Source of the DNA: Octopus sinensis
Lineage: Eukaryota
DNA length: 64,000 nucleotides
Assembly: GCF_006345805.1 (NCBI RefSeq)
Contig: NC_043005.1
Span: 88,288,001-88,352,000 of the forward strand
Direction: 5' to 3'
Shown here: piece after piece, positions 3,665-41,927 of the stretch
Layout of the letters: each line of letters begins with the position of its first letter
How positions within the stretch are numbered: the stretch's first letter is position 1
The notes under the pieces: generated by a model
Database searches by the model: none
What the model was told of the DNA's origin: nothing
What the model saw: only the letters and a program-made list of their open reading frames with translations
Made by a program: the position numbers and the translations under genes

Positions 3665-4536
3665 AGTAAATGGTGGGGTTGTATTTAACCACACGTGGAG
3701 AAATGATAGGAGAGGAAAAATTGAAAGTAAATCTTAATAAAAATGGGTGTATGAAAAATTAAAAAAGAAAAAAATAATAAATCAAACCAATTTTCATAGC
3801 AAGGCAAATTTTCAAGATTTGGAAGGGGAAAAGAATGTTTTTAGAATTGAGGAAGGGAAAAAAGAAACTTACAATGTTTTTTCAAAAAAATAATAGTACA
3901 TATATACAAAAATTAATAAATAAGTATACCAATACATTGTAGTGTCTTATGCTTTTAGAGTTCAATAATAGTCCTTGGAAAAACTTCTTTGGAGGATTAG
4001 GATGCACGTGCTTAAATGTAGTGTTTAGTTTAAAGAGTTGGGTGAAAATGTGTCAAAACAGGAAATGGGGTAGGAGTTATACAGTTCCTGTGAGTAAGGG
4101 GAGACAATTCTGTGGATTTTATGCTCTTTAATTGGGATGATTGATTTTTTGTCAAACAGGATGCTTATATCAATTTTTGTCAGATAGGACGCTAGAAAAA
4201 GGAATATGGTCACCGTGGAGTTTGCATATTAAGTCGCGTTTGGAATTTTTCAATAAAAAGATTCTCCTTGTTGATTCTTCCTTGTGTAGAGATTCTGTCT
4301 TTACATTGGTAGAAAGGGAGTATGTGAAATTTGGGATTTTTATCTCTAACGCAAGAGTCTATGTGGCTACTGAATGGAATTTGACGGTGTTGTGGGAGAT
4401 TTATCTGTTCTTTATGGACTGTTACTCTTCTGCGTAAAGGAAGAACTGATGCAGCCTATAGGTGCAGGAAGGACAGTGTGTGTTTGTGTGTATTTAATCA
4501 GGTGAATTTTAAGTTTGTCTCTTCAATCTTTTTCAG

Positions 4537-4691
4537 ATTTGGTCGCAAAAAAGTGATAATTGTGTGTTTATTTCTGCAAGGGTCAACCGGAATAGCAACG
4601 GCCTTCATCTCCAACATTTATGCCATATATGTGTTACGTTTTCTCACTGCTGTTGGTGGTGCTGGATCCTACATTCCCTCAGTTGTCTTTG
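4537..4691 (+). CDS. SLC22-like gene, exon B (155 nt)
   Basis: cag|A...G|gtaag; completes the MFS motif DRFGRKK and includes ...YVLRFLTAVGGAGSYIPSVVF; phase fits exon A. Confidence 0.92.
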
Positions 4692-4849
4692 GTAAGCAAC
4701 CAACAATAAAACACCATAAATATTCACTTTCAAATTTGAATGCAAGTTCAGTTATGTTCTGTGTTTTATTCTTTGTTTGCTTTCATCGATTAGAAGGAGC
4801 TCTTTCAGATGTTTTAATCATATCAACAACTTTGTTTTATCTCATTACG

Positions 4850-5707
4850 CAAGAAATGTTTCGTTGCTCTGAGTGGAAAGGCAACAGTCTTCATGAGGCA
4901 GTGTGCCAAGTGACATTCCTGTGTTCGCAAGTTGTAAAATTTGTGTTCTTGGGATCACGTATATGGTGTAGTCTGCTCTTTTTGACAAGGACAGGAAGTT
5001 GGAACAAAGAACCAACGTGAAATTTTTCGTCAAACTTGGCAAGTCTGCTACAGTGACATTGAGCATGCTTCAGGAATCTTACGATGATGAGGCAATGAGT
5101 TGTTCGCAGTTTCAAGTGGCACGGATGCTTCAAAAGCGGAAGAACGTCCCTGGGAGACGATGAACCTTCAGGAAGACCTGCAACGAGCGCCACCTACCGG
5201 AAATGTTGAGAGCATTGATCAGCTTGTGCCTGAGGATGGACGGATGGCAACGAACGAGGTTTTGAAGCGTTTGAGGGAGGACATTCGGCGAAAGCGATCG
5301 GATTTGTGGAGAACAAAGAATTAAAATTCTTAACGACGGTAGTGCCCCCTGTCACCGAGCTCTCCTCACCTGTGAGTTTCCCGCCAAAGCAACATGGCAT
5401 CGCTTCCACAACCGCTATATTCGCCAGATCTTGCACCTGCGCACTTCCGTTTCTTCCCACAAGATGAAAATGCAGCTCAAAGGTTGCCATTTCGACACCA
5501 TTGTCAAGATCAAGAGAGAAAGACAGAAAGTCCTCGACATGCTTACAGAAAACGACTTCCAGTCTGGATACCAAAACTGGCAGGAACACTGGGACGGGTG
5601 TATTGTTGCGTAAGGTGGCTATTTCGAAAGAGATGGTGTTTAAAACTTAGATAAGTTATTTTTTATTAAGCATAAATAGTCTGGGAAGGTCTTGATACCA
5701 CCTCGTA
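4850..5707 (+). mobile_element. Degenerate, internally deleted mariner transposon
   Basis: Remnants EQRTNVKFFVKLGKSA, LKRLREDIRRKR and PQPLYSPDLAP; right TIR ends ...GATACCACCTCGTA. Left boundary is approximate. Confidence 0.85.
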
Positions 5708-7339: not shown

Positions 7340-8240
7340 CCTATCACAAAATGACTGGTTTCGCCGAAGCTTTTCAAATTTTGATTGTTAGATGCGATTC
7401 GAAATGAGAAATTTTGTTTGTTAGGAGGGGATAATTGGTAAACATGGTATTTTTTCAGTGAAGAGGAGATAAATCTGTAATTTTTCAATATGCATTTATT
7501 TTAAGTTCTGGCTTATATTTTTCGATACATGGGGCCTCATTATTTAGTCGCGCTTGTGTTGAGGTCAAAATAATACATTGATATAAAGGGAAGATTAGGA
7601 ATTGTGATCGCAGCTATTCCACACATCTGTCAATGTGTACATTGAGATTATCTTGCGACATTGCGGGGAAGAGTTGTGTTGTCTGTGAACTGTACATCTA
7701 CGTCTAAGGGACATTCCTGTGGAACCTATGTAGTTTTTATGATAGCCCGAGCATCTGACAACATAAATGAAGTTTTCAGAGGCGCGAGTAAAATTGGACT
7801 TAATTTTGAATTTTTGCCATTGTTTAAAATGGAATTCTGCTCCTTCCAAAAGATTGGGACATGTTCCGCAGTTAGGTCGACCACATTTTTTATACTCTTG
7901 CGTCCGTTATTCTTCAGAGTAATTTAGCATTTGTGAGGATCTTGTTTAATGTCTTTGGTTGTTTATTGCTTTTAATGATCTTTCAGTTTGGGATCTTTAT
8001 GGAGTATTGGGAGATTTTAGCCAATAATGTTAAATGCTTCGTGGCTTCTAGTGTTTTATGTTAATACATAAGGAAGTAATTTTAGAGTAGGCGTGTTATT
8101 GTGTTCGACTTTTCTTAATGCTTTTATGTCAATCGATTTTGCACTTTTAATCCCATCATCTATGAGTTGAACTGAGTAGTGTCCGTCAGTGAGTACGTTT
8201 TTAAGCTTTGCAGTCTCAGTTCTCAGGTATTTTTTCGGAC
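7340..8240 (-). mobile_element. Penelope-like element 3' fragment (GIY-YIG), broken ORF
   Basis: FIYVVRCSGYHKNYIGSTGMSLRRRCTVHRQH is a PLE GIY-YIG motif; the ORF is frameshifted. Confidence 0.85.
7348..7382 (-). ncRNA. Minimal type I hammerhead ribozyme, U3-A8 core variant
   Basis: Minus strand AAAAU-UUGAAAA-GC(UUCG)GC-GAAA-CCAG-UC-AUUUU: 5-bp stem I, stem II capped by a C(UUCG)G tetraloop, GUC site. Confidence 0.7.
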
Positions 8241-8313
8241 AATATGGGGCAAATCCTTCTTGAGAGGTTGAAAGGGATATGTCTGGGAGGCGGGGCATGA
8301 GCTAAATAAACCG

Positions 8314-9390
8314 TTGACCAATCTTAAGTACATTAGCAAATTTAGTAATCATCCTGGAGCAATTACTAAGAATTTAGTTAAGAATATTTCATTTAGATTA
8401 TCTAAATTATCTGCTAATGTTGATATTTTCAATAATAACGCTGAATTCTATAACTCTGCCTTAATCAAAGCAGGTTATACAGAAAAAATTTTCTACATTG
8501 ATTCTGCTCAGTCTAATTGTAAATTCAATAATGTAGATAAGATTTCTAGTCGTAAAAGAATTATTGATAACAATAACTTACGCACCGATACAAAGCGAAT
8601 GAAGGCAGATAACCCTTATTTAATCCCCTATTATCGATCTAAAAGTAAATATAACACCTTCAAAAGTAATTACGCTATGAACACTAGTAAAAATATTTGG
8701 TTAATAATTCCTTACGGGAGACAAATTAAATCTAATCTCCCACTGCTGTTTCGTCAAGCTATTGCTAGGAATATTCCAAACAATTCTAGATATTACTCTA
8801 TAATTAATTCACATAAGGTTAGGATAGGTTTTTCAAACACAAAAAATCTCTTGCAAATTATATCTTCTCATAATTACAAACTGTTAAATATTAATACATT
8901 TACTAATACTAACATTAATTTAGCTAATACCATCCAACCCTCTAGAAATATTAATAACAAGGTTATTGTATCTGAAGTCAATTCCAATAGAATTAAATTT
9001 ATGTCAAGTAACTCTAAGATTAAAAATTCTATATACCAGTGTATAATCAGTACTCGTAATAAAGTACGATTTTACATTGGAAGCACATCGTTAGAGTTAT
9101 CTAAAAGAATTTCTATCCATTACTCAACATTTAGGGATAGAAATAAACGGAATAGTACCGGTCTCAGCAAACTGATTTGGGATTTAAAAGACCACAATGA
9201 ACAATTTCATTTAGAATGGTTGATCCTCTCAATTTCGATACCATATGACAAAGGCAAGAAATTCTGTCTTCTCTGCAATTCTGAGCTATTTTTCATTATT
9301 TTTTCTAAAAATACTCTAGTAAACACGGTTATAGAACGAGCATACAGATGTAAGCATTGGCAGAAACATACATTTAGTGCATATAAGTAG
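8314..9390 (+). mobile_element. Penelope-like element, 5'-truncated ORF (RT thumb plus GIY-YIG endonuclease), 358 codons open
   Basis: SNHPGAI...ISFRLSKLS thumb region; NSIYQC...FYIGST...RIxxH and CLLC motifs; RT core is missing. Confidence 0.9.
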
Positions 9391-9591
9391 TCTCTATCAT
9401 TATATATAATTTAAACTTTAATTTCCTTTATATTTAACATTCACTATTAATATCCCTACTCTTTCTGTTAGCTACTTATGACGTTATATCATATAACGTT
9501 TTTTTAAACAATATTAATAGCATTCTGTCTATCGCTATACAAATCCATCATTTTTTGCTAAAATGTCGTATTGACGAGTTTCGTTTTTTTC

Positions 9592-9677
9592 ACTTTCCCG
9601 AAGAGAAGATTGCATTGTTTATACCATTTATTCTTTTGAATAGTATCAGTGGAATTTTCGAAACATGTGTCGAAAGT
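9592..9677 (+). ncRNA. Hammerhead ribozyme-like motif in the PLE 3' region (U4C core change)
   Basis: ACUUUC-CCGAAGA-GAAGAUU...AAUUUUC-GAAA-CAUGUG-UC-GAAAGU; perfect 6-bp stem I and a GUC site. Confidence 0.7.
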
Positions 9678-9873
9678 AAAAATACTTGTTTAAACCTGCG
9701 TTACCTCCATTTTTTATTCATATTATTCAAAATATTCAACGTAAACACGAAGTTTCAACCTTTATAAACAAGGAGTTACAACATCTTTACTGGTGAGATT
9801 TTTGCTGCCCTGGTAACTATTTATTTATTTATCCGTGTTAATTGTTAACAAGGTAAAAATACACTCATCTATT

Positions 9874-9943
<70 letters not shown>

Positions 9944-10047
9944 TATACATATATATGTGTGTATATATATATATACATACATATATATACATATATATGT
10001 GTATATATATATATATACATATATATATACATATATATATGTGTATA

Positions 10048-10209: not shown

Positions 10210-10276
10210 CCAATAACTGAAGAGATGCCGGCGTGGGTTTCCGCCCCGGCATTCGAAACTCGGAGTTTTATCATGG
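10210..10276 (+). ncRNA. Type I hammerhead ribozyme
   Basis: CCAAUAA-CUGAAGA-GAUGCCGG...CCGGCAUUC-GAAA-CUCGGAG-UU-UUAU(CA)UGG; canonical core and GC-rich stem II, inside a ~240-bp element between (TA)n arrays. Confidence 0.75.
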
Positions 10277-11834: not shown

Positions 11835-12090
11835 CACACCATACTAATCATATCTGTCAGGCATGTGGAAAAGAGTGTAATTCGGCAGGAGGACTTAAAC
11901 GACATGCAAAGGTACATGAAGCCCAGTTACAACTACAGCCGGCTATTACCGGTAGAGGTTTTTGTTGCCAATTCTGTACTAGACATTGTAGATCTTTACC
12001 TGGGCTAAAAAGTCACATTCGATCACAGCACCAATAACTGTTAAGCTTCATGCAATGGCCATACTTGATAACGAGGGGGCAGCCGCAATA
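11835..12090 (+). mobile_element. Probable RTE-clade LINE 3' end with two C2H2-like motifs, inserted in (ATGT)n
   Basis: CQACGKECNSAGGLKRH and CQFCTRHCRSLPGLKSHIRSQH*, then a short 3' tail; no splice context was identified. Confidence 0.6.
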
Positions 12091-12233
12091 ATGTATGTAT
12101 GTATGTATGTATGTATGTATGTATGTATGTATGTATGTATGTACGTATGTATGTATGTATGCATGTATGTATCAGAGTGTGTGTTCATATATATGTGTGT
12201 ATGTGGTTGTATTTTCCGTTTTCTATTTGCAAG

Positions 12234-12446
12234 TTTCCTAGACGAGTCTCCCCGATGGCTCCTCAATAAAAAGAGAACAAAAGATGCCAACTTAATTCTT
12301 AGCAACATCGCCAAACTGAATAAAACAGTTTTGCCTCAAACAGAAATCGTCAACATTTTCTCATCGAACAAGAAAAAAGTAGAAATCTGGAAAATGTTTA
12401 CCATTCCTCAGCTTCTAAAACGGACCCTAATTTTGATGCTAAACTG
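12234..12446 (+). CDS. SLC22-like gene, exon D (213 nt)
   Basis: aag|T...TG|gtgagt; FLDESPRWLL (PESPRWL signature) through to LLKRTLILMLNW. Confidence 0.92.
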
Positions 12447-12484
12447 GTGAGTGATATTACATTTACCATTTTCTGTGTATTCTT

Positions 12485-13289: not shown

Positions 13290-14000
13290 AGCTGATCAAG
13301 CTGTCTGATGTCCCTAAATGTAGGTTTTTAAAGTATTAGCCATTCTCTGACAGGTTTGTGGTCAAGCCTGCGTCAGTGGAGACTGCCTAGCATTCTCAGG
13401 CCCTCAACCACGTCCCTGCTCACCACTATCAGGGTGGATACAGCTATCCGCAAGTGTGAGCCCTTGTGGGTCAGAGTGGCTGTTCCAGTGCATCTGGGGC
13501 AACACCTTTTCAATTTTATCTGCTGGGACCATGAGGCGAACTGACAAACCTTTTTATGTATTTTCTGTGAAAAAAAGGAAGGATATGAGAATTTAGGCAG
13601 GGCCCTTCATCAAATTTAGAAAACCATATCACTAAGAATTACCGAAGGCTAACAAGTGTCAGAAACTACAGACAAATCAGTGAATATTTTCTACTTCATA
13701 AACACTTCATGCACACATAAGCTAAAAAAGGCCGCATACACATACAAACCATCTACTCACCATTTATCCAACGAACTAAAGTTACTTTCGTTAACTGGCT
13801 CTCGTTGGCTAACTCTGTCTCAGCTGTTGAGTTGTCTTAATTGTCTATATTAGACAGTTAGTTGTATAACTTTACTTGGTCTCAATGTTAAATTATTATA
13901 ATTCTCTCTAAGAAATTACGTAGCCATCTAACCAGGGATTGGTCAGCAATTTTTGTGCATTTTTGTACGTTATATAAAATGTTTCATTTCTTTTCTATAG

Positions 14001-14227
14001 GGCGATTGTGAGTATGGTATATTTCGGCATTGCTCTTAATGTTGGCAAATTGTATGGCAATCTCTATATGAATTTCTTTTTGATTTCGATTGTCGAGTTT
14101 CCGGCCTATACTCTGTGCATCCTTCTGTTAAATCGTGTTGGAAGAAAAAAATTGCATACTAGCATGATGGTTTTGGCTGGAGTCACTTGTATCGCTGGAA
14201 TATTTCCCGTTCTCTATGGCACTAAAG
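14001..14227 (+). CDS. SLC22-like gene, exon E (227 nt)
   Basis: tag|G...G|gtaaac; AIVSMVYFGIALNVGKLYGNLYMNFFLISIVEFPAY...LNRVGRKK, the second MFS motif. Confidence 0.93.
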
Positions 14228-14288
14228 GTAAACGAATCATTATTATTGTTCTTGTTCTTGTTCTTTTTGTTATTATCATCATCATCAA

Positions 14289-39470: not shown

Positions 39471-39501
<31 letters not shown>

Positions 39502-39554
39502 TATAATACATTTCTAAATATCTCAGAGAGATTTATGCAGTAGTAATACGATAA

Positions 39555-39993
39555 AGTAGTTGCATACTGTCAACTTAGTGTAACAGTCCCATGAATGGAA
39601 TCATACAACTGCTATTCAGCCCTAGGACGCAGCAACGCTTCCTGTCGGCCTTAACACGTTTCCTGTGTCCTTATGAGATAAAGAGAAATGTATTATTTCT
39701 ATTTTTGTAATCAGTGAATTTATTTCACTTGAATTCTTATGTTTACAAGAGCTAGATAGGCATCCCCAACAAGCAGGCCATGCTACTCCAGACTGATGAT
39801 GAGCAAGGACTCAGAAACTAGTCTCTGGCTGCAGGCTTAGCTGGGTGGAGGTGCTTATCTCCCCTTTGTAAACATAAAGAAACCGGAAATGTGTCAAGGC
39901 CGACAGGAAGCGTTGCTGCTTCCTAGGGCTAAGTAGCAGTAGTGTGATTCCCTTCATGGGACTGTCACATTAAATTGACAGTATACAACTACT
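39555..39993. mobile_element. Element with about 120-bp imperfect terminal inverted repeats around an HHR-containing core
   Basis: 39555-39675 is inversely repeated at 39873-39993; (TA)n tracts lie close on both sides. Confidence 0.85.
39788..39828 (+). ncRNA. Canonical minimal type I hammerhead ribozyme
   Basis: CCAGA-CUGAUGA-UGAG(CAAGGA)CUCA-GAAA-CUAG-UC-UCUGG; palindromic stem III ACUAGU, GUC site. Confidence 0.9.
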
Positions 39994-40309
39994 CTCTCTA
40001 TATATATATATATATGGCAGGCTTCTTTCAGTTTCTGTCCACTGAATCCACTCACAAGTCTTTGGCTGGCCCAAGGCTATAATAAAAGACACTTGCCCAA
40101 GGTGCCATGCAGTGGGACTGAACAAGGAACTGTGTGGTTGGGAACCAAGCTTCTTACCACACAACCATGACTGCATAGTTTTGTTGATCTTAACAACAGA
40201 AACTAATGGTTGATGAATTTTCCTGTTTTTCAGCTACTATTTTCGGTAAGTCTTGTTTGCCCCCATCCCCCTCCCCCTCCAATTTCTTCATTTTTCACTA
40301 TTTCCGTAA

Positions 40310-40412
40310 CTCTAACCCTAAAATCCCAACCCTAGCCCTAACCCTAAAACCCCAAGCCCAACCTTAATCCTAACCCTAACTCTAAAACTCAAACCCTAAC
40401 CCTAAAGCTAAA
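40310..40412. repeat. Degenerate (CCCTAA)n telomere-like tract
   Basis: Repeated TAACCC/CTAACC units with many variants. Confidence 0.75.
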
Positions 40413-41011
40413 ACCAGTACAAATGCACGAATGATGTCATAAATAACAGTGACAAGCGAAATATACACCGCCGGAAGTTGTTGTTGACAAACAACAGCAG
40501 TAATTTTATTCAGTTGTATACACCTCATTGATTCGTTGAAATTACCGAAATACGACAACTTTAACACGAAATAGCTTTGAAAATACAAACTTTTCTCAAC
40601 AACACTGAGAGTAAAAGATGTTTTATATGGAACATTCTACCAGTATACGAAGTTTGAAAGTATTTAGTTACAAAAAATTAATTTCTCGATCTTCCGTTCA
40701 AAGGGTAAAGGGCCCTAAAAAGTAGATTACTTTTATATAAAATAGAAGCTTTATAATAATTCATACTAGCCTGTAATATTAAATTCTATAAAACTGCATC
40801 CCATGGTATCCTCATCTTACTTTATTTCTTACTTTGCGTTATTAGAAATACCACGAGTGATTATTATTCATTTACTTATAATTATTTAACTTTTCATTTT
40901 CAGTTTTTTTTTAATTTTCTTATTTGTCTTATTCTTTGTTTTTGTTTTTATCTTATGTCTATTTTATCATTTTATAAATCCCTTTTGAAATTCAAGGTAT
41001 ATATGTATCTG

Positions 41012-41104
<93 letters not shown>

Positions 41105-41287
41105 TAAATAAAAAGAACGAAGAATAAACAAGAAAAAACGACAACGCGACAACGTGGTACATGCAAAGTATTAGCAGACATTTCGAGCAAAGCTCTTCGT
41201 CAGAAACAGGAGACGAGGAAGGTCAAAGAGAAAATGAAAACGGAGGAAAAAATCGCCAACGATCAACATGTGGTTCTATTTTCAAAA

Positions 41288-41321
<34 letters not shown>

Positions 41322-41333
41322 CGTTTTGAAAAT

Positions 41334-41371
<38 letters not shown>

Positions 41372-41377
41372 TTTGAA

Positions 41378-41416
<39 letters not shown>

Positions 41417-41927
41417 TTTGAAAATGTATATATATATATATACGTCTTCATATTATATTTTCATGTGATTTCTTTTAGTATACATTATATTATATCATTA
41501 AATTTTATATTTTGTATACCTATTCACCGTCGTATATACTTGTGTAACATTCTATGATTTGCGGAGGTGATTGTAACTTCTCTCTTAAGCTCCCAAATCT
41601 TTCTTTTGCAAACTGGTTTGCTTCTTGGCGTCTTTCTAGCCTGAACTCTGAAGTCACTATTAACTAACCTTTGTTGAGATTTGAACTCTTCACATGGGAA
41701 GGGTTTTGTATTTCTAAGCAACCAGCTTTTCTGCTTTCTGGTGAAAATGTAGTCAAGCTTGCTTTGTATGACCACCACATTAATAAGTGAACAGGTGAGT
41801 GGGTGGTTTCTTGAAGTCATAATCGAAGATCATAATGTTGTTTGCATTGTGCACACTCACATAAATTCACAAACAAATAAATATATACACATATGCACAT
41901 GCATATATATATATTTCTCTCTGTGTA

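What the first reader, a model, noticed from the sequence alone, without database searches (positions are those of the whole stretch)
39555..39993. MITE-like inverted-repeat element whose loop holds a textbook hammerhead
Seen: about 120-bp imperfect TIRs enclose a 200-bp core containing CCAGA-CUGAUGA-UGAG/CUCA-GAAA-CUAG-UC-UCUGG. Its RNA would fold as a long stem with a self-cleaving ribozyme in the loop. Established: MITEs move as DNA and have no need for a ribozyme. Inference: this is a non-autonomous PLE derivative with an inverted pLTR, or an undescribed rod-shaped ribozyme retroelement.
Basis: partly seen in the sequence, partly recalled or inferred. Interest (0 to 1): 0.78.

Follow-up and report, generated by a model that had tools for sequence, protein, structure and literature searches.

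The report
Hammerhead retrozyme insertion with Penelope footprint
This is one inverted, two-armed insertion of a 351-base hammerhead-ribozyme repeat with hundreds of genomic copies; it is not a MITE, and its ends match the Penelope retrotransposon pattern, so it was likely copied from RNA by borrowed Penelope enzymes.

Summary
The inverted repeat and the hammerhead are real; the MITE and rod-RNA readings fail. The unit is a 351-nt type I hammerhead monomer (non-LTR retrozyme) with hundreds of dispersed, 5'-truncated copies. The left 'TIR' is a second, inverted, truncated copy that runs 48 bp past the right arm's end. Inverted arms occur in 84 of 175 loci, at almost all-different junctions. Outer ends fall at two sites about 54 nt apart. 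Where both ends could be classed, 52 of 54 insertions use one of each; a 72-75% sister family gives 36 of 36 and shows compensatory stem changes. This matches the Penelope 'tail', explained in vitro by two reverse-transcription start sites, and supports the proposed but unshown Penelope mobilisation of retrozymes, probably by priming from both ends of one break. No autonomous partner was found, and cleavage and circular RNA are untested. The window copy has one dimer-type ribozyme and is probably inert. Side finding: a 1.7-kb ORF1-only element inserts, with target duplications, 24-39 nt upstream of the hammerhead core in several diverged retrozyme families (20 of 30 ends); the window copy lacks it.

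The parts
39503..39995 (.). Whole insertion: inverted truncated arm joined head-to-head to a forward truncated arm of the 351-nt retrozyme monomer
   Evidence: locus L001: inverted m226-~398, forward m25-348; m = position in the real monomer of L023
39503..39675 (-). Inverted 5'-truncated copy (the left 'TIR' plus tail); carries no hammerhead; ends at the long (T) site
39503..39550 (-).
39674..39995 (+). Forward 5'-truncated copy, 0.92 monomer (core plus right 'TIR'); ends at the short (S) site
39674..39675 (.). Inversion junction with 2-nt overlap (TG)
   Evidence: overlap of 1 nt or more in 52 of 84 junctions
39788..39828 (+). Type I hammerhead, palindromic minimal stem III (ACUAGU); predicted cleavage after C39823; activity untested
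39737..39879 (+). Long imperfect stem extending hammerhead stem I; intrinsic to the monomer (predicted)
39479..39502 (.). (TA)n run on the left, likely target site
   Evidence: dinucleotide runs beside 83 of 175 3' ends against 10% background
39998..40016 (.). (TA)n run on the right, followed by an unrelated host repeat (39999-40167)

Best explanation
The feature is a single, inverted two-armed insertion of a non-coding 351-nt hammerhead repeat (a non-LTR retrozyme), likely copied from RNA by the reverse transcriptase and GIY-YIG endonuclease of a Penelope-like element acting in trans. Shown: monomer length, dispersal, 5' truncation, partial tandems, two fixed 3' ends 54 nt apart, one of each per inverted insertion, AT-rich targets, variable target duplications. 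Inferred: a staggered double-strand cut in (TA)n DNA gives two 3' ends; each primes reverse transcription on retrozyme RNA, one at site S and one at site T; the two cDNAs stop at random points and are joined head-to-head through microhomology, which looks like TIRs. The template is inferred to be circular or uncleaved multimeric RNA, because most arms read through the cleavage site. The ribozyme would act as a dimer in the few tandem master copies; the window copy has one ribozyme and would not release a circle.
For: Head-to-tail period 344-357 nt in 14 of 16 loci tried. 81 exact hits for a hammerhead 29-mer and 284 for a 3' 27-mer, reversed controls 0. Sample 1: 116 loci after removing 14 duplicates of 130; 56 inverted; 34 with both ends classed give 32 S+T, 1 SS, 1 TT, Fisher p 2.5e-7; 22 had an unclassed end. 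Sample 2, chosen by the 3' end: 59 new loci of 70; 28 inverted; 20 of 20 classed are S+T, 8 unclassed. Sister family B (361 nt, 72-75% identical, 853 exact hits): 14 of 14 and 22 of 22, no TT although both queries favoured T ends. In 20 of 55 inverted loci, the window's included, each arm holds 15 or more monomer positions that the other lacks, which rules out fold-back of one cDNA there. Arms share 92 of 333 minority alleles against 37.6 expected (49 loci). Non-simple flank repeats of 8 nt or more in 18 of 84 inverted and 13 of 91 plain loci against 1.2 and 1.6 by shuffled pairing. 46 of 51 arms read through the cleavage site. Literature: inverted 5'-truncated copy and a 30-40 bp tail at one end are Penelope features (PMC8557442, passages); Penelope protein cuts and extends both strands of AT-rich DNA and starts at two internal RNA sites that bound the tail (PMC11167929, main text). 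Young Penelope-type RT plus GIY-YIG families exist in this genome.
Against: No autonomous element sharing DNA with the monomer was found in the loci fetched or in two Penelope-type families checked, so the partner is unidentified. The tail is about 54 nt, longer than the 30-40 bp in print. 30 of 84 inverted loci have an end at neither site. No significant pile-up of 5' ends at the cleavage site (5 of 49 against 2.6 expected, p 0.11), so in vivo cleavage is not shown. Only 4 of 175 loci hold two hammerheads in one arm and the longest is 2.04 monomers, whereas retrozymes are defined as tandem repeats. Shared alleles between arms could reflect one subfamily active at a time or gene conversion, not one RNA molecule. 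Sample 1 is enriched for inverted and hammerhead-bearing copies by its queries.
Confidence: 0.82

Rival explanations
1. A MITE (DNA transposon with TIRs) that captured a hammerhead.
For: 126-nt arms around a 197-nt core, flanked by TA runs.
Against: Left arm runs 48 bp beyond the symmetric point; junctions differ in nearly every copy; 91 of 175 loci lack a second arm; target duplications are 8-14 bp and variable.
Confidence: 0.01
2. A rod-shaped palindromic ribozyme RNA is itself the transposing unit.
For: Very stable fold. One pair of loci with unrelated flanks shares an identical junction (L074/L075), so a palindromic copy may occasionally be re-copied.
Against: Window junction is found only in a 2.1-kb duplicate that includes flank; 55 of 56 junction bins are distinct; the rod follows from any inversion.
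Confidence: 0.04
3. The copies are 5'-truncated pLTR remnants of an autonomous Penelope element acting in cis, whose coding body is lost or was not sampled.
For: Same tail and inversion footprint; hammerheads lie in pLTRs (PMC4209133, passages); retrozymes are homologous to pLTRs in Xenopus (bioRxiv 10.64898/2026.07.22.740005).
Against: Copies longer than one unit wrap into the monomer again (46 of 116 forward arms exceed 351 nt) and never into an RT or GIY-YIG frame in the loci examined.
Confidence: 0.1
4. Post-insertion or fold-back inversion of a single copy, or mobilisation by an ordinary LINE with L1-type twin priming.
For: Arms resemble each other more than random copies (93.1% against 90.5%); microhomology at junctions.
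Against: Each arm holds sequence that the other lacks in 20 of 55 loci; both outer ends are element 3' ends, unlike L1 inversions (recalled); the strict S+T pairing is unexplained.
Confidence: 0.03

Closest known systems
Non-LTR retrozymes of metazoans (Cervera and de la Pena 2020, PMC7229834; mussel repeats of 350-390 bp)
   Same: Non-coding monomer of about 350 nt, type I hammerhead with weak palindromic helix III, strongly self-paired circular fold (z -4.5 to -7.9 in 14 monomers), head-to-tail repeats.
   Different: Mostly dispersed, truncated and often inverted copies, at most 2 monomers in 175 loci; circRNA and cleavage not shown here. Inversions and tails are not mentioned in the abstract, passages and two sections I read.
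Penelope-like element insertions (Craig et al. 2021, PMC8557442; Frangieh et al. 2024, PMC11167929)
   Same: 5' truncation, partial tandems, inverted truncated copy at the 5' end, tail at one end only, two 3' start sites, AT-rich and microsatellite targets, hammerhead upstream of the start sites.
   Different: No ORF; tail about 54 nt; no sequence link to a Penelope element found in this genome.
Retrozymes as non-autonomous PLE derivatives (Li et al. 2026, bioRxiv 10.64898/2026.07.22.740005)
   Same: Same conclusion on origin and partner.
   Different: That work rests on co-occurrence and pLTR homology in vertebrates and leaves the mechanism open; here the evidence is the integration footprint, in an invertebrate-type genome.
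MITEs
   Same: Short, non-coding, inverted arms in this one copy.
   Different: Arms not terminal or fixed, no fixed target duplication, RNA-type truncation.
Target-specific Tx1 LINEs and HAL1 half-elements (for the side finding; Kojima 2015, PMC4494074, passages; HAL1 definition recalled)
   Same: Insertion into another mobile element, tandem copies around a target duplication, ORF1 only.
   Different: Target is a fixed distance upstream of a hammerhead in several diverged retrozyme families; clade and ORF2 partner not established.

Membership tests
Non-LTR retrozyme | Type I hammerhead in each monomer | tested here: met
   Core intact in 22 of 28 loci, 330 of 335 core letters; 5 of 10 pairs change on both sides between families A and B, 91.7% paired, slid controls at most 44% (two families, so about one event per pair). 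No Rfam hit.
Non-LTR retrozyme | Non-coding monomer of 170-400 nt | tested here: met
   351 nt, range 344-357; no ORF of 100 aa over the feature.
Non-LTR retrozyme | Head-to-tail repeats with two or more hammerheads | tested here: met
   Met for the family in 4 of 175 loci; not for the window copy, which has one. No long arrays seen.
Non-LTR retrozyme | Self-cleavage and circular RNA | not testable with these tools
   Only contigs of runs guessed to be RNA were available; they cannot show cleavage or circles.
Penelope-mobilised insertion | Inverted 5'-truncated copy adjacent to the 5' end | tested here: met
   84 of 175 loci.
Penelope-mobilised insertion | Two 3' start sites; tail at one end only | tested here: met
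   52 of 54 in family A, 36 of 36 in family B.
Penelope-mobilised insertion | AT-rich or microsatellite targets | tested here: met
   (TA)4 in 69 of 175 3' flanks against 6.4%; AT 77% against 63%.
Penelope-mobilised insertion | Homology to the pLTR of an autonomous element | tested here: inconclusive
   None found in two families and the fetched flanks; the search covered a small part of the genome's Penelope families.
Autonomous Penelope-like element | RT plus GIY-YIG ORF | tested here: not met
   No such ORF joined to any copy examined.
MITE | Fixed terminal inverted repeats shared by copies | tested here: not met
   55 distinct junction bins in 56 loci; asymmetric ends.
MITE | Fixed-length target duplication | tested here: not met
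   8-14 bp and variable where visible; not definable in the window's (TA)n flanks.

The most novel reading that the evidence does not exclude
A three-tier parasite chain: Penelope enzymes mobilise hammerhead retrozymes by priming both ends of one break at two coordinated RNA sites, and the retrozymes are themselves the specific target of an ORF1-only LINE derivative that inserts about 35 nt upstream of the hammerhead core in at least four diverged families, gaining their transcription, ribozyme 3' processing and transport. I found no report of a hammerhead-repeat-targeting retroelement in the searches, which cover open-licence papers only.
Probability: 0.5. Interest if true: 0.75.

Novelty: new member of a known kind. 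Interest (0 to 1): 0.55.

Why it matters
Which enzyme moves animal retrozymes is proposed but not shown (PMC7229834 discussion; bioRxiv 10.64898/2026.07.22.740005). This family carries the Penelope integration footprint on a 351-nt RNA with no ORF, which gives a small defined substrate and two predicted start sites for an in vitro test. The strict one-short, one-long pairing (88 of 90 across two families) says that the two priming events at a break are coordinated, which the single-strand in vitro data did not resolve. It also warns that such insertions are easily annotated as MITEs. The ORF1-only element that targets these repeats may be a new target class for site-specific LINEs.

Tried and rejected
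Rfam scan of the window: no hit. Autonomous partner: ORF scans of flanks, two Penelope-type protein searches with DNA comparison of their loci and widely spaced pattern pairs found none; the spaced pairs held the ORF1-only insert instead. Protein searches returned nothing; Pfam gave only sub-threshold GIY-YIG and zf-CCHC hits. Run-off at the cleavage site: not significant. Expression: no RNA holder listed on record; contigs from four runs guessed to be RNA cover the monomer and show the head-to-tail joint, but this joint exists in genomic DNA, so it is no evidence for circles. Empty-site allele: none seen in four DNA contig sets. An apparent cluster of 5' starts at m112-135 is partly query bias and partly the ORF1 insert site. 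One search used a mis-registered structure and is superseded; the stem II probabilities were off register and are not used. L002 was dropped as non-independent: it shares 2.1 kb including flank and has many single-base indels, so it may be a local duplicate or an assembly duplicate. Earlier findings: none on record. Supplements of the papers were not read; those of the bioRxiv preprint are closed and could list this family or its footprints.

Full report
Observation. The strand folds far better than shuffles (z -22). Rfam gives no hit. Helix III is one A-U pair closed by the palindrome CUAG, the form that works as a dimer (PMC4209133 passages; PMC7229834 passages). The genome is a 2.72-Gb animal assembly; octopus is my guess from size and repeat make-up, recalled and not shown by any search.

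The unit. A search with the feature gave 3058 candidates, of which 40 were scored; most matches cover only core plus right arm. Upstream of the core many copies continue head-to-tail into the same unit, which defines a 351-nt monomer (344-357 nt in 14 of 16 loci). Exact patterns give 81 hits in the ribozyme and 284 near the 3' end, with 0 in reversed controls, so the family has several hundred to over a thousand segments (my estimate from about 94% mean identity). On this ruler the window insertion is an inverted copy of m226 to about m398 joined through a 2-nt overlap to a forward copy of m25-348. The left arm passes the point where the right arm stops and runs on to 39503.

Architecture. Of 130 loci were duplicates; 56 of the remaining 116 have an adjacent inverted arm, with 55 distinct junction bins. 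Outer ends fall at S (m340-355..CTACTCTAT) or T (m391-417..ATATTTCTAT). Of 34 inverted loci with both ends classed, 32 have one S and one T (p 2.5e-7); 22 had an unclassed end. A second sample chosen by the 3' end (70 loci, 11 already seen) gave 28 inverted of 59, 20 of 20 classed as S+T, 8 unclassed, and the whole ribozyme span in 28 of 59. Junctions overlap by 1 nt or more in 52 of 84, are blunt in 8 and have extra bases in 24. Flanks are AT-rich and show variable 8-14 bp duplications well above shuffled pairing. In 20 of 55 inverted loci each arm has sequence that the other lacks, and arms share minority alleles 2.4 times more than expected. One identical junction occurs at two unrelated loci, the only support for a palindromic RNA being re-copied.

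Sister family. A 361-nt family, 72-75% identical, turned up beside a Penelope-type ORF and has 853 exact hits. It has the same two ends and the same pairing: 14 of 14 among 30 loci and 22 of 22 among 43 loci. Its hammerhead differs by compensatory changes at 5 of 10 pairs and keeps a palindromic helix III.

Mechanism. Craig et al. describe for Penelope-like elements an inverted 5'-truncated copy and a 30-40 bp tail often at one end only (PMC8557442, abstract and passages). Frangieh et al. show that purified Penelope protein cuts and extends both strands of AT-rich DNA and starts reverse transcription at two internal RNA sites that bound the tail, without need for ribozyme cleavage (PMC11167929, parts 1-2 of 4). 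My inference: both ends of a staggered break prime on the retrozyme RNA, one at S and one at T, and the truncated cDNAs are joined. 46 of 51 arms cross the cleavage site and there is no significant stop there, so the template is circular or uncleaved. Four of 175 loci hold two ribozymes in tandem and could be masters. The genome has young RT plus GIY-YIG families, one with 97-98% identical copies and long open frames, including a copy at window 8272-9390, but none shares DNA with the monomer. The partner is open.

Comparison. The family fits the non-LTR retrozymes (PMC7229834, passages plus sections 14 and 17), for which Penelope mobilisation is a proposal, supported by homology and co-occurrence in a 2026 preprint (parts 1-3 of 5). 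In what I read, inversions and tails are not described for retrozymes; searches found no paper on this, but cover open-licence papers only, and supplements were not seen. It fails both MITE tests.

Side finding. Some copies of both families carry a 1.6-1.9 kb insert encoding a roughly 445-aa protein with a CCHC knuckle. It is abundant (14,103 candidates, 150 scored), has unnamed relatives (408 at E 0.001) and resembles molluscan CCHC proteins and, at 0.90, ZCCHC3-like proteins, which suggests a LINE ORF1; that label is inferred. Among 30 loci chosen by the protein, 25 had a recognisable 3' end and 21 of these had a hammerhead core 23-38 nt downstream (some loci are neighbours in one array). 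Among the first 30 of 48 exact 3'-end hits, 20 had a core 24-39 nt downstream against 0.14% of random windows (8 loci overlap the first set), in at least four diverged repeat families including this one (L360). Exact target duplications of 14-19 bp are seen in 10 of 25, and in 6 of 25 the inverted arm of the same insertion shows the empty site, so it most likely inserts into genomic copies after integration. No ORF2 was seen in the 1.5 kb upstream of those 30 ends. Tx1 elements that target other transposons are known (PMC4494074, passages); searches found none that targets hammerhead repeats. The window copy has no such insert.

Verdict. A new member of a known kind, misread as a MITE. Its value lies in the quantified Penelope footprint and in the targeting element. 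Interest 0.55.

Noticed in passing
L299-L328, L359-L388, L093, L138, L279-L281 (G000 loci): ORF1-only 1.7-kb element (CCHC knuckle, about 445 aa, T-rich head, AATAAA end) inserted 24-39 nt upstream of hammerhead cores in several diverged retrozyme families, with 14-19 bp duplications and tandem arrays of 1.7 kb period.
   Followed up: partly
L202:850-1135 and L219-L298: Sister retrozyme family B, 361 nt, core CCGAYGA, 853 exact hits, same S/T rule.
   Followed up: yes
L300, L311, L313, L317, L364, L368 and others: Further hammerhead repeat families with TTGACGA, TTGATAA and CTGATGA cores, no BLAST match to families A or B in most.
   Followed up: no
window 8272-9390 (+), element about 8306-9989: 5'-truncated copy of a young Penelope-type family (RT with YRDD, C-terminal GIY-YIG-like domain; 23,686 candidates, 97-98% identical, open frames near 780 aa); no hammerhead found in it by my pattern.
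   Followed up: partly
window 10212-10275 (+): A second hammerhead-like motif (CTGAAGA, long stem II, GAAA, palindromic ACTCGGAGT) outside the Penelope copy.
   Followed up: no
window 7598-7906 (-): Fragment of another GIY-YIG family with CxxC motifs, 12,254 candidates.
   Followed up: partly
L002/L127 (G000:C9:88.92 Mb): Duplicate of window 39479-41585 starting at the left edge of the insertion, with many single-base indels; local duplication, transduction or assembly duplicate.
   Followed up: partly
L074, L075: Identical inversion junction at two loci with unrelated flanks; a palindromic copy may have been re-copied.
   Followed up: partly
monomer m222-227: Mild hotspot for the inner end of arms, including the window copy (9 of 143 arms in a 5-nt bin; picked after looking).
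   Followed up: no
window 40304-40412: Degenerate TAACCC-type repeat array 300 bp right of the insertion.
   Followed up: no
window 4385-5020, 11992-12450, 13978-14250 (+): Exon-like frames that read like an MFS or SLC22-type transporter (label recalled; no Pfam hit for the one tested).
   Followed up: no
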